Origin: the human T2T-CHM13v2.0 reference genome, Homo sapiens
Strand: one strand, 5' to 3'
DNA: 64,000 bases
NCBI RefSeq assembly: GCF_009914755.1
Contig: NC_060939.1
Below are positions 6,011 to 61,266 of this stretch, one piece after another; position 1 is the first letter of the stretch; each line of letters begins with the position of its first letter. A program made the translations under genes and the position numbers. Under the pieces are notes generated by a model. It was not told where the DNA came from. It did not search any database and saw nothing but the letters and a program-made list of their open reading frames with translations.

Positions 6011-6606
6011 TAGAACAGGCGCTCGGTATTTGGTGAGTAAGTGAGTGAGGGAATACATATCTGGTCTGTGTACTGCCAAACCACAAGACAGCTGGAACTT
6101 TTCTTCATGCCTCCAAAGTATTTGGCACCATGTGGAAAATCTCTGTAACTGCCTGGGATTGAAGGGGACAGGAAGAGGAATGAGTCCCTTTTAGCTGCTT
6201 CAGACACAGCAGCATCTTCTCCCTGCAGAAGCTTGTGTGTAGTGCACATCCTGCAGCACTGTACACAGTGGTTCTGAGGGAGGGACTCCCCACTAAACCT
6301 CAACATCTCCAGCTGTGTGGATTTATTCTTGCTACACAACCATCCAGGTGGAGAGTGGGTGGCCAGGGTCAGCAACCAATGTGCCTGCTAGTGAGGCTGC
6401 AGTGGGGAGTTGGGGGGGTTGCATATGGCTTCAGACCCTGACCCAGCCCCAGACAGTCTTGAACTTAATCATTTGGGCCCAGATAGGCCACATGCTGAAC
6501 CCTGACAGGCCACAGACCCATCCACAGGTCTGAGTGGCTCCTCTATAAAGGGTTGGAGGTCTGGAACCCAAAGGCATGGCCAGCAGGGATTCCAAGAGAG
6601 GCCTAA

Positions 6607-6759
<153 letters not shown>

Positions 6760-43369: not shown

Positions 43370-44520
43370 GGCAGGGAGCGGGGAGGGCGGTCCTCCGTCC
43401 AGCCTAGTTTACTGACTCCCTCTCCGGGCCAGATGGGCGCTGGAATGGGTGGCTGGAGAGGGGTTCGGGTCCTGCCTAGGGCGAGAGTAGCTGGAGAGAG
43501 GCGCGCCTGAGAGGTTCTTCCAACTGGAAAGAGCTCTTATTCCACCGGTGGGGAAACTGAGGCACGGCGAGGGGAAGTCACCGGCCCAAGGTCACGCGTC
43601 GAGCTGAAGGCAGAGGCAGGGTTTGAACCTGGGAGAGCTGGCTCTCGGGAGGCCTCGGCCAGCGACCGAGAAAAGGGAGGGGCGGCGGGGCGGCGGGGCC
43701 TGTGTTGGGGGCCGGGCGCGCCGAGCTCACCTGGTAGTTGTCTAGCTGCTCTTCGGTGAAGATGGTCTGCTTGTTCCCCATGGTGGCCGCCGCGCCGCCG
43801 CTCGCCCGCCCGGGCTCCGACTCCCATCAGCGGCCGCCAGACCCGGAGCCAGCGCCCCGTGCCCGCGGCCCTCGGCAGCCCCGCGGCTGGCAGCGGCCCA
43901 CGGTGGCCGGACCCTTCCCGCCCCGCAGCTCGCCTGGAGGAGGCGCGCGGGGGTCTCGGAGGCGGGGACGGGAACCCGGAGCGGCAGCGACTCCGCCGCC
44001 GGCGGGAAGAGGGCGGGGCACCCGGCTCCGCGGCTGCAGCGCGCCCGGGTCCCGGCAGGAGGCGACCTGGCCCCGGGAGACGCTGCCCGGCACGAACCCT
44101 TGGCTCCCGCGGCCGGAAGTGCTGGGGGCGCGCGGGGGTCTCGGAGGCGGGGACAAAGACCCGGAGCGGCGGCGACTCCGCCCCGCAGCAGGAAGAGGTG
44201 TGAGCCCGGGTCCCGCCGTGGGAGTCCAGGTCGCACGGCGTGAGGGTGCGGGGCCTGGGAAAAAACCCTCTCGAGGCGGGCAGTGGGGCGAGTGGCGCCC
44301 CTTGACCTGGGGCGGGGGCGGCAGCGAGGACTGTGAGTGCGTGGATCTAGCTGGGGCCGGGCTCCGCCACCGTCTCGCGTCGCGACCTTGGTCAAGCCCT
44401 TACCCGGGCCCTGTCCCTCTGGGGAGAAGGAGGGGGTCAGTCAAGCTGACATCTGAGGCCCTCCCGGCCAGGCCTCGGGAAGCCCATCTGGCCTTTGGGC
44501 GCGGCCTAGGCAGGGCATCT
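43370..44520. promoter_or_regulatory. CpG island / CIB2 promoter, probably bidirectional
   Basis: Very GC- and CpG-dense; GGGCGG boxes; ETS motif CCGGAAGT at 44113-44120. Confidence 0.9.
43731..43781 (-). CDS. CIB2: Calcium and integrin-binding family member 2, coding exon 1 (MGNKQTIFTEEQLDNYQ)
   Basis: Perfect Kozak GCCACCATGG; MGxxxT myristoylation motif; donor CAG|GTGAGC; 51 nt, phase 0. Confidence 0.97.
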
Positions 44521-47062: not shown

Positions 47063-47559
47063 ATCTTTTTGGATCATTATTACCATGGCCTATCTGAAGC
47101 TCTCTCTCTTGAGCAATGCTGTGAGGAGGGGCAAGGAACACAATTCCCATGTTACAGATAAGAAACCTGGGGCTCAGAGAGGCCAAATGACTTGCCTGAT
47201 GCCCCCCAGCTGGGAAGTGGCAAAGCAAAGCTCTAACGTCGTTCTCTGATTCCAAATCCTGTGCTTTAGCTGCTCCCTGATGTTGAGTGTGGTCCCTGAG
47301 GAGCAGAGTGTGTGTGTTTGCTGGGAGGGAGGATGGGCCGAGGGAGAAGAATAAAACATTACTGATTACTTATCTAGTGCCCAGAATTGTACTGGATGTG
47401 CTATATTTACTGAATTTGATTATTCCACAATAGCCTCCTCAGTCTGTGGAGTTTCATATTATTATCCCATTTCACAGGTGAAGAAATAGTTTCAGAGAAG
47501 GTGACTTGCCCAAGGTCACATAGCTGGTAACAGGTAGATTTAAATCTGGGCCCTGACTC

Positions 47560-47842
47560 TTTTCTTTTCTTTTTTCTTTTTTTTTTTTTTGAGACAGTCT
47601 TACTCTGTCGCCCAGGGGCATGATCTCAGCTCACTGCAACCTCTGCCTCCCGGGTTTAAGTGATTCTTCTGCCTCAGCCTCCTGAGTAGCTGGGACTACA
47701 GGTGGGAGCCACCACACCCAGCTAATTTTTGTATTTTTAATAGAGACGGTGTTTCACCATGTTGGCCAGGCTGGTCTCGAACTCCTGACCTCCTCAGCCT
47801 CCCAAAGTTGGGATTACAGGCATGAGCCACCGTGCCCTGCCG
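47560..47842 (-). mobile_element. Alu with internal deletions
   Basis: Antisense Alu. Confidence 0.9.
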
Positions 47843-48051
47843 GACTCTTCTCTTGATCACACAGTCTAGGACAGGGAAACGTGGTTACCAGTGTTTAAAG
47901 GGGGCTGACTCCTTGTCAATTGCAGTCTTGTAAATAATGTAAAAGGAAAAGGCAGCAGGGGTGCCAGATACTCATTAAATGTTAGCTTATTTTTTTTCAT
48001 TTCTGATTCACACAATGAAGTTTATTTTAAAATTTGGAAGGAAAACAGGAA

Positions 48052-48181
48052 TAAATGCTACCAAGTGCTTCTTTGGGATGAGAGGTCATCTTGACCTGCT
48101 GCCCAAGTGCTCGTTTGTGATGATGATGCACTTTGTGATCAAGATGACCTCTCATCCCAGAGAAGCACTTGGTAGCATTTA
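48052..48181. repeat. Inverted repeat: 43-bp arms (42/43 match), 44-nt spacer
   Basis: 48052-48094 is the reverse complement of 48139-48181 except T48073/G48160. Confidence 0.97.
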
Positions 48182-48224
48182 CTGCAGAACAACTCAATCT
48201 GCAAGTTGTTCTTCTAAGACTTAG

Positions 48225-48513
<289 letters not shown>

Positions 48514-48852
48514 GAATCTAGGTAGATCTTAATGACAGAGATGGAAGATCCCTGGGCCCAAGGTCTGGGTGGGACCATCTCTTAAAGTAAACGAAGCCTG
48601 CAGCCTGTCTTCTAGCAGCTCTGTGGGCCCTGTGAGTCATTCCCCAGTCCTCCACTCAAATCCTTTACTATCCCACCTCTACTTTTTATCAGCTCAGGAC
48701 CCCACCTGCTATCTTGGCTCATGGGAATCTTCTCTATCTTAGGGGCAATTCAAATCTTACTCTTATCTTTACCTATAAAGCATTGTCATCTTGGCGTCTT
48801 CCCTGACATGGCTGTGATTTATAGTGTGTGAGCAGTTACTAGGTCTGCCTCA

Positions 48853-54660: not shown

Positions 54661-56617
54661 TTCAGGAGGCAGGGACTTCGCCTCCCCTGGGTTACTCCAT
54701 TCTTCTTTGTGCCTAGCATAGGGCCTGGAATATCACAGATGCACAAAGAATCTTTTCTGAATGAGTGATGAAGGAATTGAGGCTGATACTCTGGTTTGGT
54801 AACCACCTAGGTATGTGATGAGGCCCTCTGCTGAGATGGGAACACAGGAGAGAGGGCAGGTTTTGGGGAGAGTAATGAGTTCAGTTTTCATTGTGAAAGT
54901 TTGGAGAGCCCTGGAATTTCTAGGTGGAGAGGCCTGAGGCCCAGGGCTGTGTGGGCCTTGATTTCTCTCAAGGCCACAGAAGAGTGGAAAGTGCAAAGTC
55001 GTAGTAACAGTTCATCTCTTTAGTCAGTAATCATTGCTGAGTCTCTCCATGCAGGATGAATAGACCAGTGAGAGCTGCCCATGAGGTGTCTCCCTCCTCC
55101 TGTGGTGATCTGTGTACCTGCCCAGGCCCTCAGAGGCTAGGAGCTCCTCCAAGGTAGGGGATAGAAATCCTTCATCTCTAGCCCCTCTGACTTCCTGCCC
55201 CATCCTGACATAGTAGGTGGCTCGGCAATGATAGCTGGAGGGACCACGCAGTAAAACCCATCTGTGGAAACACATGTATTCAGAGCAACTTTTTTTGGCC
55301 TGAAGTCACTGCAGTGGAACATTTGGGAGCAAGTTTCCCCAGGGCCCAGCTCCTTCCCGCTAGGCTCTGCCATGCCTCCTGTTTATTAACAGGGAGGCGT
55401 GACAAAGGGAAAAATCTCCTGATTGAAGACTCATCTCAGACATCTTTTCACTCCTCTAGGGAAGGGTGCAATTCTGGGCTTTAATGACATATGACGGGGC
55501 AGGCAGTAGAGGTGTTGCGCATTTTAGGCAATACATGTGCTGCTAGAAAGTTGAGGTATAGGGACTTTTTAGGAACACAATTTTTATTGACAAGTAACCT
55601 TTCAAGAACAATAAAGAAAATCAGAAAGAAAACCTATGTTCATAGCAGCATCATTCATAATAGCGAAAACAACTCAAATGGCCATCAACTGACGAACGTA
55701 TGAATAAAATGTGGTCTATTCATGTGATGGAATATAACTTGACTGTCATGAGGAATGAAGGACTGATGCATGCTATGATATGGATAAGTCTTGAAAACAT
55801 CATGCTAAATGAAAGAAGCCAGACACAAGAGACCAGATATTTTATGACTCCGTTTATATGAAATGCCCAGAGTAGGTGAATACATTGGGATGTAAAAGAG
55901 ATTGGTGGTTGCCAGGGTCTGGGAGAGGGGAGATGGGGAGTGGCTGATGGAACAAGCCATATGGAAAAGCATTCCAGGCATTGGGAGCAGTAAGTGCAAA
56001 GGCCCTGCAGTGGGAGGAAGCATGGCCGATTAAAGAACAGCAAGGAGGTAGGTCGGCTTCAAGGGAGACAGTGGTGGGGGAGAAGCTCAGAGAGGGGCTA
56101 GCAGGACTAGACCCTTTAGGGCTTTATGGGGCACTGCCAGGGCATTGCCTTTTACTTGGAGAGAGACAGGATGTCGCTGGCAGCTTTGGGCAGAGAAGGA
56201 TGTATCTGTCTTATGTTTGAACACAATCCCTCTGGCAGGAGATGGATTTTAAGGGGTAGAAGTAGGGAAGCCAGTTTGGGGGCCACTGTGTTGGTTCAGG
56301 CAAGAGGTAACTCTGACTTGGACCCTGGTGGCAGCAGCTGCCAAGGGGAAAAGTGTCCAAAACTGAACCTATTTTGAAAACAGCTCATCTTCAGGCTTTT
56401 GGCCTCAGCAACTAGAAGGCTGGAGTTGAATTTTATTGGGTGGGGGAATTCTGTGGGAGGGAGCAGGTTTCCTTCTACTCTTTGTTCACATATAAAAAGA
56501 AGTTATAAGAGAACATAGATAATAGTTTAAATTTTTATTTTTTTCTGAACATTCAACCATAAACATTTATCAAGATGCTAAAGTCTTCATAATACTCACT
56601 TTAAAAATGTTTTTTTT

Positions 56618-59948
<3,331 letters not shown>

Positions 59949-61266
59949 CAAAGCTTATCTTCTCAATGGCACACAGCAGAAGAGAATGTGATGTTTCCCA
60001 GGAGAGGTGGGAGCCAAGTGCTAGAGGGCTCTGAGTAAGGAGAGGGGGACACATTCGTGGGTCTTGGGGGCTTTTACAACTTTTACTACTTCCCAACATG
60101 TAAGCTGAGTCTTGACAAGGAGCTAGAATTTCAGCCAGTAGAAGTGGGGCAAGAGGGCATTGAGGCTGAGGGAATGGCACGACCATAGGCACGGAGAGGT
60201 AAAATATGGGAAGCATTTGGGGGCTGGCCAGCAGTCCTAGTTGGCAGGCGCTCCAGGTCTTTGGGGCTGGAAGGAGTGGTGGGAAATCAGGCTGAAAAAA
60301 GACAGTGGTGTGAGAGGAGAGTGCAAGGGAGAGCCAGGAGGTTTCAGAGCCGGGGCGAGCCCTGGTCAGAGCTGTGCCTGAAGGGGAGGGCAGGTTGGCA
60401 GGTGAAGAGGCTGTTGTAAGAGCCTGGGCCTGAGGTGGTCTGGCCCGAAGGAGGGCAGGGGTGACATTGGGGATGGAGGAACTGTGGGAGAACACTTCAG
60501 GATGGGACTGCCAGGGCCTGATGAGGGGAAGGGGCCCAATGGAAAGGGGTTGATAAAAGCCCTCCTTCCTGACAAGGCCACAGACTTAGCTGCAGTTTAT
60601 TATTTAGGTCATAAAAGCTCTTGGGATCACTTCTCTACTGCACTCATCACCTCTCTGGGTGGGTAGGCAGCTCCTCTCTGGATAGAACTCTTCCCAGGGT
60701 AGGGTAGCAGAGACCTGGTTTAAACACCTGACCTCCCCTGGCACCCAGCTAGAGGCCTGGCCATCAGCAGGAACTCAGGAGTTTGTGATGGACAGGGAGA
60801 GGACAAGGGGAAAGGTGAGTATGGATGTTATTTCTTCAGAGAAGCATTCCCTGACCTCCAGGTTAGGTTTGAATCAGGTTGCCTGATTTTGCCTTGCCAT
60901 AGCTCCTTGCTCTTTTGCTTCTTGGCGCAACAGTTTTAATGACATGTGTGTGACACTTGATTGAAGCCTGTCTTTCCTACTGGACACTAAGCCCCAGCAC
61001 TTAAAACAGTGCCTGGTGTCTAGTTGACCCTCAGAAATATTTGTTGAGCTAAATAGACAGATTAGTAGTTGCCTGGGATTGAGGACAGGAGCGGGATTGA
61101 CTATAAACGGACACAAGGAACATTTTCATATGCTCAAAAACTGGATTGTGGTGATGGTTGTGCAACTGTTTACATTTACTAAAAATCATCAAACTGTACA
61201 CTTACAGTGAGTAAATGTTACTATATATACATTATACCTCAATAAAGCTGGTAAAAAATAAAATTC

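What the first reader, a model, noticed from the sequence alone, without database searches (positions are those of the whole stretch)
48052..48181. Unexplained 130-nt near-perfect hairpin in unique intergenic DNA
Seen: arm TAAATGCTACCAAGTGCTTCTTTGGGATGAGAGGTCATCTTGA (48052-48094) pairs with 48139-48181 at 42/43. The only mismatch (T48073/G48160) is a G-U wobble in + strand RNA but A-C in - strand RNA. The spacer can pair further (AAGTGC 48105-48110 with GCACTT 48128-48133). CCAAGTGCT occurs twice (48061, 48103), hinting at a template-switch origin. The 5' arm contains AAGUGCU, the miR-302/372/520 seed. It matches no TE I know, although the TA ends are compatible with a Tc1/mariner-type MITE. 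Inference: nascent miRNA/endo-siRNA precursor, ADAR/PKR substrate or cruciform.
Basis: partly seen in the sequence, partly recalled or inferred. Interest (0 to 1): 0.75.

Follow-up and report, generated by a model that had tools for sequence, protein, structure and literature searches.

The report
Copying-slip hairpin hiding an older hairpin
Near the human CIB2 gene a 43-base stretch occurs twice in opposite directions (42 of 43 letters match), most likely left by a recent DNA-copying slip on top of an older repeat; thousands of such hairpins are reported, and this one is probably functionless.

Summary
The inverted repeat is real: arms 48052-48094 and 48139-48181, 42/43, fold z -13 (+) and -11 (-). 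It is not a MITE on present evidence: own-genome searches find only itself, the terminal TA is part of the palindrome, and old transposon arms would not stay 98% identical. The locus therefore has three arms, and spacer plus right arm form an older 87-nt hairpin (z -6.0). Most likely a template switch recently copied one arm at an older local repeat, a known class (6,054 such hairpins reported in human genic DNA, 0.9% annotated as miRNAs). The full hairpin is a poor miRNA precursor: 43-bp stem, about 110-nt product, and AAGUGCU needs a cut 3 nt off the canonical site. It has no Rfam match, no RefSeq row and no entry among 84 chr15 novel-miRNA candidates. One oddity remains: the inner hairpin has basal UG, apical UGUG and CNNC in one Drosha register (chance about 1.4-2%), and the left arm outcompetes it. 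A lost miRNA overwritten in one step is possible (about 6%). No orthologues or RNA data could be examined. Interest 0.2.

The parts
48052..48094 (+). Left arm L, 43 bp
48139..48181 (+). Right arm R, reverse complement of L at 42/43 (T48073/G48160)
48095..48138 (+). Spacer S, 44 bp: diverged same-orientation copy of L (core 18/21 at spacing 42; last third of the alignment weak); carries the L base at the L/R mismatch column
48097..48177 (+). Older imperfect hairpin S.R: 32 pairs, stem 39/38 nt, 4-nt loop, -35.5 kcal/mol over 87 nt, z -6.0; predicted to be displaced by L in the present sequence
48097..48098 (+). Basal UG of the inner hairpin, -14 from a predicted 5' cut at 48111
48134..48137 (+). 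Apical UGUG of the inner hairpin; its first two bases are predicted paired
48182..48185 (+). CNNC 5 nt below the base of the inner hairpin, 16-17 nt after the predicted 3' cut
48063..48069 (+). AAGTGCT heptamer in L (second copy 48105-48111 in S); would be a seed only if the 5' cut were at 48062
48190..48193 (+). CNNC 17 nt after the 3' cut of the 48062 register of the full hairpin
48050..48055 (+). AATAAA hexamer overlapping the base of L (consensus match only)

Best explanation
The locus is a 43-bp inverted repeat (42/43) around a 44-bp spacer that is itself a diverged copy of the arm; it most likely arose when a replication template switch copied one arm at an older local repeat, and it is likely neutral. 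Inferred: an old event first made an imperfect repeat. Later the polymerase jumped to the opposite strand, copied 43 or 87 nt backwards and returned, probably within simian primates (1/43 = 2.3%, 95% interval 0.06-12%; rates recalled; this dates only the last copying). Three histories fit. (1) An old tandem L.S gained R. (2) An old hairpin S.R gained L. (3) An old hairpin of L and inverted S was copied whole in one 'inverted repeat plus inverted spacer' switch, which yields L.S.R in one step; this is my preferred history because arm 43, spacer 44 and repeat spacing 42 then come out nearly equal, but I cannot rank the three without outgroups. If transcribed at all, the hairpin would be a low-level nuclear duplex poorly suited to Drosha.
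For: Single copy: DNA searches of the own genome with 156, 391 and 80 bases return only the locus and its own reverse match. A 24-nt pattern with up to 3 mismatches gives 3 outside hits against 1.3 expected; the reversed control gives 0. None of the 3 has an inverted partner around the hit. Spacer-arm similarity: score 36, 0 of 20,000 shuffles; 117 of 19,820 background positions reach 33 as direct and 12 as inverted neighbours. Known mechanism: inverted repeat 31% and inverted repeat with inverted spacer 23% of 794 human-chimp events (PMC5453318); 53,666 switches, 6,054 miRNA-sized hairpins, 57 annotated; copy lengths 24-96 nt in the rows seen, with two-event loci such as mir-4713 at 28 and 88 nt (PMC10710096). 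No small-RNA record in Rfam, in the supplied RefSeq table or in 84 of 84 chr15 candidate rows. Three poly(A) hexamers lie on + between CIB2's start and the arm, and ten on - beyond the lncRNA end.
Against: No outgroup sequence was available, so the switch is inferred, not traced. The own-genome DNA search scored one candidate only and warns that no match does not show rarity. One other window site of about 128,000 strand positions scored 37 against L, and only about 27 nt of the S-L alignment is firm. Neutrality is untested: no conservation or RNA data. The three Microprocessor motifs on the inner hairpin (chance 1.4-2%) are not explained by a neutral history. A donor-like GTGAGT at 44333 on + could let a divergent transcript run through. 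No comparable unique-DNA hairpin was found in 200 kb of background (0 of 3 hits), so the class is not dense.
Confidence: 0.72

Rival explanations
1. Spacer plus right arm (48097-48177, +) is or was a real miRNA precursor, cut near 48111 and 48165-48166. The younger left arm, a near-perfect partner for R, displaced the old 5' arm and would have silenced or rewired it in one step.
For: 87 nt, -35.5 kcal/mol, z -6.0, MFEI 0.87; 4 of 2,438 background windows of similar GC fold as well. Stem 39/38 nt with 32 pairs (82-83%), at the edge of the 33-39 nt and 82% rule; bulge at position 8, in the enriched 5-9 zone; CNNC 5 nt from the base. UG, UGUG and CNNC fall in one register giving a 55-56 nt precursor: 0.12% per register, 0.36% for any of 3, 1.4-2.1% after 4-6 hairpin and strand choices; none of 12 minus-strand registers has all three. 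With L present the S-R pair probability is about 1e-28.
Against: Found post hoc. Unpaired bases at 16, 17, 28 and 31 fall in the bulge-depleted zones; the loop is 4 nt and half of UGUG is predicted paired. G-U pairs are 3 on each strand, so there is no strand bias. Best Rfam score 17.6 bits against a cut-off of 100. The prior is about 1% (57 of 6,054). Histories 1 and 3 make the motifs coincidental.
Confidence: 0.07
2. The full hairpin is transcribed (divergently from the CIB2 CpG island on +, or by read-through of LOC124903534 on -) and yields a functional miRNA or siRNA, possibly with the AAGUGCU seed, or an edited duplex with a role.
For: The duplex is very stable on both strands and the one mismatch is G-U on +. 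If a 3-bp extension past a 3-nt bulge counts as stem (seen, not in the longer fold), the 48062 cut has an 11-nt lower 3' strand and CNNC at +17. Template-switch hairpins do become miRNAs, 12 of 111 in intergenic DNA. CIB2's start is about 4 kb away and a donor-like site lies at 44333.
Against: 43-bp stem against an optimum of 33-39; product 106-112 nt; the cut 13 nt from the stem base gives a different seed; the 48062 product would start with C; no basal UG or apical UGU in that register; 6 of 14 plus registers have a CNNC anyway. A transition mismatch is G-U on one of the two strands by necessity. Not in Rfam, RefSeq or the 84 chr15 candidates. AATAAA overlaps the base of L. About 1% of non-repetitive predicted duplexes are edited (4,597 of 497,429; PMC11838218).
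Confidence: 0.06
3. It is the relic of an old, low-copy palindromic DNA transposon (S.R or the whole element) whose arms were later homogenised by template switching or conversion.
For: Size (87-130 bp) and palindromy fit a MITE (recalled). A 24-nt search sees only 4-12% of arms at 25-30% divergence, so a small ancient family could be missed. Arm homogenisation is documented (PMC8604942). One outside hit (L008) matches 28 of 31 bases, with weak flanking similarity (27 of 1,500 random pairs as good).
Against: Searches find no family; at 15% divergence half of all arms would have been hit. P(at most 1 mismatch in 43) is 0.008 at 15% and 0.0008 at 20% divergence. nhmmer finds no relative at E below 1 in the 200 kb of unselected DNA. 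Profiles grown from neighbouring repeats (53, 40 and 80 copies) give no hit to the block below E 1.8. L008 was selected on the same motif, was the best of 3 tested, and has no inverted arm. The block is not among the longest masked stretches in the supplied table, which lists only those.
Confidence: 0.08
4. The repeat arose by another templated route (break repair using the nearby arm) or acts at DNA level as a hairpin or cruciform that affects replication or nearby promoters.
For: The single-strand DNA fold is strong. Sequence alone cannot separate fork template switching from repair-associated templated insertion (inference).
Against: A 44-nt spacer disfavours cruciform extrusion (recalled). 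No RefSeq functional element overlaps the site in the supplied table. The geometry matches the common fork-switch types.
Confidence: 0.07

Closest known systems
Template-switch mutations, four-point model (Loytynoja and Goldman 2017, PMC5453318), types 3-2-1-4 and 3-1-2-4
   Same: Near-perfect inverted repeat in unique DNA with a short spacer; a 43- or 87-nt copied fragment would produce it.
   Different: Not traced with an outgroup here; the spacer is an older copy of the arm, so at least two events are needed.
Template-switch-generated miRNA hairpins (Monttinen et al. 2023, PMC10710096), e.g. hsa-mir-4713, made by two switches
   Same: Stem within the 30-55 nt 'miRNA-like' range; near a promoter and SINEs; two-step history.
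   Different: No expression evidence or annotation; intergenic in RefSeq, whereas 99 of 111 such miRNAs are intragenic; the processed product would be about twice the usual length.
Canonical pri-miRNA (Roden et al. 2017, PMC5340965)
   Same: The inner S.R hairpin meets stem length, pairing, basal UG, apical UGUG, CNNC distance and the basal bulge.
   Different: It has bulges in both depleted zones and a 4-nt loop, is predicted not to form when L is present, and has no family match. The outer hairpin is too long.
Tc1/mariner MITEs such as MADE1 (properties recalled)
   Same: Short palindrome bounded by TA.
   Different: Single copy in all searches run; arms too alike for an old insertion; TA lies inside the inverted repeat; no similarity to a known terminal repeat was tested or seen.
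miR-302/372/520 seed family
   Same: AAGUGCU heptamer in a 5' arm.
   Different: No Rfam match to these families at E up to 1; the heptamer would be at the seed position only with an off-canonical cut; 49 copies occur in this window.

Membership tests
Template-switch inverted repeat | Near-perfect local reverse-complement copy of 15 nt or more | tested here: met
   42/43 over 43 bp, 44 bp apart
Template-switch inverted repeat | Source is local, not a dispersed family | tested here: met
   Only self matches; pattern hits at chance level; search sensitivity limited
Template-switch inverted repeat | Arm appears in one step on a branch; inverted alignment beats forward alignment to the parent | not testable with these tools
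   No primate or mammalian genomes held for this window
Tc1/mariner MITE | Multi-copy family in the host genome | tested here: not met
   3 outside hits against 1.3 expected, none with an inverted partner; small ancient families not excluded
Tc1/mariner MITE | Arm divergence fitting an old insertion | tested here: not met
   1/43; P = 0.008 at 15% divergence; ages of human DNA transposons recalled; later homogenisation could hide it
Tc1/mariner MITE | TA target duplication shown by an empty site | tested here: inconclusive
   TA at 48052 and 48180 is part of the palindrome; no empty site available
Tc1/mariner MITE | Match to a Dfam or Repbase consensus | not testable with these tools
   No repeat library held; only home-made profiles from local repeats
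Canonical miRNA (full hairpin L.S.R) | Stem 33-39 nt, precursor of usual length | tested here: not met
   43 bp; 106-112 nt for cuts 10-13 nt from the base
Canonical miRNA (full hairpin L.S.R) | Microprocessor motifs in register | tested here: inconclusive
   CNNC only, for cuts at 48061-48063; none at the canonical 48065
Canonical miRNA (full hairpin L.S.R) | Stacked reads from both arms, Drosha/Dicer dependence, AGO loading | not testable with these tools
   No read data; absent from 84 of 84 chr15 rows of one candidate table and from the supplied RefSeq table
Canonical miRNA (inner hairpin S.R) | Stem 33-39 nt, at least 82% paired | tested here: met
   39/38 nt, 32 pairs, borderline on both
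Canonical miRNA (inner hairpin S.R) | Basal UG, apical UGU/GUG and CNNC in register | tested here: met
   All three for a 5' cut at 48111; UGUG partly paired
Canonical miRNA (inner hairpin S.R) | No bulges at 16-21 and 28-32 nt from the base | tested here: not met
   Unpaired at 16, 17, 28 and 31 on the 5' arm
Canonical miRNA (inner hairpin S.R) | Forms in the native transcript | tested here: not met
   Predicted pair probability about 1e-28 with L present
Canonical miRNA (inner hairpin S.R) | Conserved arms with a variable loop across species | not testable with these tools
   No orthologues; no Rfam family
miR-302/372/520 family | Precursor homology | tested here: not met
   No such Rfam hit at E up to 1 over 47500-48700 or up to 10 over 48080-48200

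The most novel reading that the evidence does not exclude
The inner 87-nt hairpin is an unannotated mammalian or primate miRNA precursor, complete with all three Microprocessor motifs. A single template switch in the human lineage added a perfect third arm that captures its 3' strand: a natural one-step miRNA knock-out or arm swap, the reverse of de novo birth by the same mechanism. It should still be expressed in species lacking the left arm.
Probability: 0.06. Interest if true: 0.7.

Novelty: new member of a known kind. Interest (0 to 1): 0.2.

Why it matters
As a neutral template-switch scar it matters little: it is one of thousands, though a tidy two-layer example whose history a primate alignment would settle in minutes. 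It would matter if the buried inner hairpin proved to be a real miRNA precursor in outgroups, because the paper I read on this mechanism describes it creating miRNA stems and inverting their loops, not switching one off by adding a competing arm (PMC10710096, parts 1-4 of 6; no search was devoted to this point).

Tried and rejected
Rfam: 9 matches over 47500-48700, none at its family cut-off; the only one on the hairpin is plant MIR4240 at 34.8 bits against 200. 13 matches over 48080-48200, best 17.6 against 100, including C/D snoRNA hits at 8-11 bits against 37-44. Plasmid collection, distant blastn: no match. A sequence-only model of the three arms found nothing else in the window below E 0.07; no genome-wide profile search was possible. 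MIR-like origin: two profiles recover the neighbouring repeats at 47104-47245 and 47442-47560 but not the block; the third drifted to Alu-like copies and also missed it (family names recalled). L008 (chr14) homology was judged chance, not excluded. Bacterial promoter and terminator scan: 0 sites, irrelevant here. Literature: CIB2+IDH3A+hairpin 0 papers; the 24-nt motif 0 papers; chr15+78135 27 papers, 20 listed, none evidently on this locus, listing only; recalled start coordinates of a longer Ensembl IDH3A model gave 1 irrelevant paper and IDH3A+CIB2+bidirectional 1 irrelevant paper, so that recalled isoform is unverified. The PNAS supplements hold no CIB2, IDH3A or 78135 (the chr15 term was uninformative because loci are written without 'chr'; Dataset S2 was not readable; the hg38 and hg19 prefixes are my estimates from recalled offsets). 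Londin et al. 2015 was not held. The complexity-filtered background (0 direct, 1 inverted of 5,964) is not relied on, because the spacer itself (0.595) falls just under the 0.6 filter.

Full report
1. Observation. The arms 48052-48094 (L) and 48139-48181 (R) are 43 nt, 42/43 complementary and 44 nt apart, with the mismatch T48073/G48160. The + RNA folds at -91.9 kcal/mol (z -13.0) and the - RNA at -89.1 (z -11.3); 0 of 200 shuffles match either. Among 10 inverted repeats of at least 20 nt within 300 nt in the window it is the only one above 90%. In 200 kb of background from 20 evenly spaced places on chromosomes 1-5, a scan for arms of at least 20 bp, 90% and spacer up to 200 gave 3 hits: two Alu-like and one longer, older pair in repeat-like DNA (labels recalled), none in unique DNA. 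The sample is small; it bounds the rate only below about 15 per Mb. The feature is real and far beyond chance.

2. Copy number. Own-genome DNA searches with 156, 391 and 80 bases return the locus and its own reverse match only; each scored one candidate, and the tool warns that no match does not show rarity. A 24-nt pattern from L with up to 3 mismatches found both arms and 3 other places, against 1.3 expected and 0 in the reversed control. None of the 3 has an inverted partner. One (L008) matches 28 of 31 bases, with marginal flanks (27 of 1,500 random pairs as good, best of 3 tested). Such a search would see 50% of arms at 15% divergence and 4% at 30%: a young MITE family is excluded, a small ancient one is not. 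Arms left alone since an old insertion would show at most 1 mismatch in 43 with probability 0.008 at 15% divergence. The terminal TA is inside the palindrome. nhmmer on the 200 kb of unselected DNA found no relative at E below 1, and profiles from neighbouring repeats missed the block.

3. The spacer S is a diverged, same-orientation copy of L: 18/21 at spacing 42, global score 36 with 0 of 20,000 shuffles as high, though one other window site scored 37. In background DNA 117 of 19,820 positions have as good a direct neighbour and 12 as good an inverted one (score 33). About 27 nt is firm; the last third is weak. S carries L's base at the L/R mismatch, so R likely took that mutation (inference). 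Because S resembles L it also pairs with R: 48095-48181 alone folds at -35.5 kcal/mol, z -6.0 on + and -4.1 on -. The locus thus records two events of different age.

4. Mechanism. Short-range template switching makes this geometry. In human-chimp data, 31% of 794 events give an inverted repeat and 23% an inverted repeat with an inverted spacer, and the authors infer inter-strand switches (PMC5453318, passages). In human genic DNA 53,666 switches were inferred, 6,054 gave miRNA-sized hairpins and 57 (0.9%) are in miRBase (PMC10710096, parts 1-4 of 6 read). Copy lengths in the 15 rows seen run from 24 to 96 nt, and mir-4713 has two events of 28 and 88 nt. Arm homogenisation and spacer inversion are also reported in yeast (PMC8604942, passages). 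Three histories fit: tandem L.S then R; hairpin S.R then L; or an old hairpin of L and inverted S copied whole (87 nt) from the opposite strand, with the return guided by the old arm's similarity. The third gives L.S.R in one step and makes the near equality of 43, 44 and 42 less coincidental. All are inferred; no outgroup was available. 1/43 is 2.3% (95% interval 0.06-12.3%), which by recalled primate rates places the last copying within simians.

5. Is the full hairpin a miRNA? Optimal stems are 33-39 nt with at least 82% pairing (PMC5340965, passages), and Drosha cuts about 11-13 bp from the basal junction (PMC10954719, passages). A cut 13 nt up gives a 5' end at 48065, another seed, no motif and a 106-nt product. 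AAGUGCU becomes the seed only with a cut at 48062, 10 nt up, giving a 112-nt product that starts with C. In favour: that register has CNNC at +17, and a 3-bp extension past a 3-nt bulge would restore an 11-nt lower 3' strand. Against: 6 of 14 plus registers have a CNNC, and the extension is absent in the 351-nt fold. The heptamer occurs 49 times in the window, and any of 100 seeds would appear in such an arm about 36% of the time. Rfam has no match, the supplied RefSeq table has no MIR row, and none of the 84 chr15 rows of the Friedlander 2014 candidate table is this locus (PMC4054668, supplement 3 rows only, main text not read).

6. Transcription is untested. CIB2 starts about 4 kb away on the other strand. 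Three poly(A) hexamers (47350, 47974, 48050) precede or overlap L on +, and ten lie on - between LOC124903534's end and R. A donor-like GTGAGT at 44333 on + was missed by my first pattern and found by the second. I recall a longer Ensembl IDH3A model starting at the CIB2 island, which would put the hairpin in an intron on +; two searches did not confirm it. Even if transcribed, about 1% of non-repetitive predicted duplexes are edited (4,597 of 497,429; PMC11838218, passages, supplements not seen), and the neighbouring lncRNA exon holds 14 longer or equal inverted pairs of 43-151 nt.

7. The oddity. The inner S.R hairpin has a 39/38-nt stem with 32 pairs, MFEI 0.87 and a bulge at position 8; basal UG (48097), apical UGUG (48134) and CNNC (48182) all fit one cut at 48111 and a 55-56 nt precursor. 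In 394,800 background positions all three co-occur in 0.12%; allowing 3 registers and 4-6 hairpin or strand choices gives 1.4-2.1%. Against: it was found post hoc; bulges at 16, 17, 28 and 31 lie in the depleted zones; the loop is 4 nt with half of UGUG paired; G-U pairs number 3 on each strand; there is no family match. With L present the S-R pairing is predicted to vanish (about 1e-28). With a prior near 1% and a likelihood ratio near 10 (motif frequencies in real miRNAs recalled), I put a lost or rewired miRNA at about 6-7%.

8. Verdict. A real, single-copy, three-armed repeat, most likely a young template-switch duplication on an older repeat and likely neutral (0.72). It is a new member of a known kind. 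Interest 0.2; 0.7 if the inner hairpin is a miRNA in outgroups. Not examined: orthologues, Dfam, miRBase or MirGeneDB directly, RNA reads, PNAS Dataset S2, and the preprint's supplements, any of which could bear on these claims.

Noticed in passing
window 43887-44029 and 44067-44213: The CIB2 promoter CpG island holds a direct duplication of about 150 bp (score 121, long exact runs) spanning the two annotated transcript starts at 44011 and 44101.
   Followed up: partly
window 44333-44338 (+): The only GT[AG]AGT donor-like site on + between 43900 and 48052, just outside CIB2's start; could serve a divergent first exon.
   Followed up: partly
window 56614-59952: The long last exon of LOC124903534 holds 14 inverted pairs of 43-151 nt at 72-88% (Alu-like by recall), two arms only 12 nt apart; a likelier editing substrate than the hairpin.
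   Followed up: no
window 48224-48240 and 48514-48530: 17-bp target-site duplication (16/17) around the Alu-like insertion just downstream of the hairpin.
   Followed up: no
L025 about 6285-6627 (G000:C4:20006285-20006627): An inverted pair of about 140-bp arms with a 56/59 core in repeat-like DNA (LTR-like by recall), found in the random background.
   Followed up: partly
L008 1497-1556 (G000:C14 near 48177958): Best outside look-alike of the left arm (28/31), next to a MIR-like repeat starting at 1556; probably chance.
   Followed up: yes
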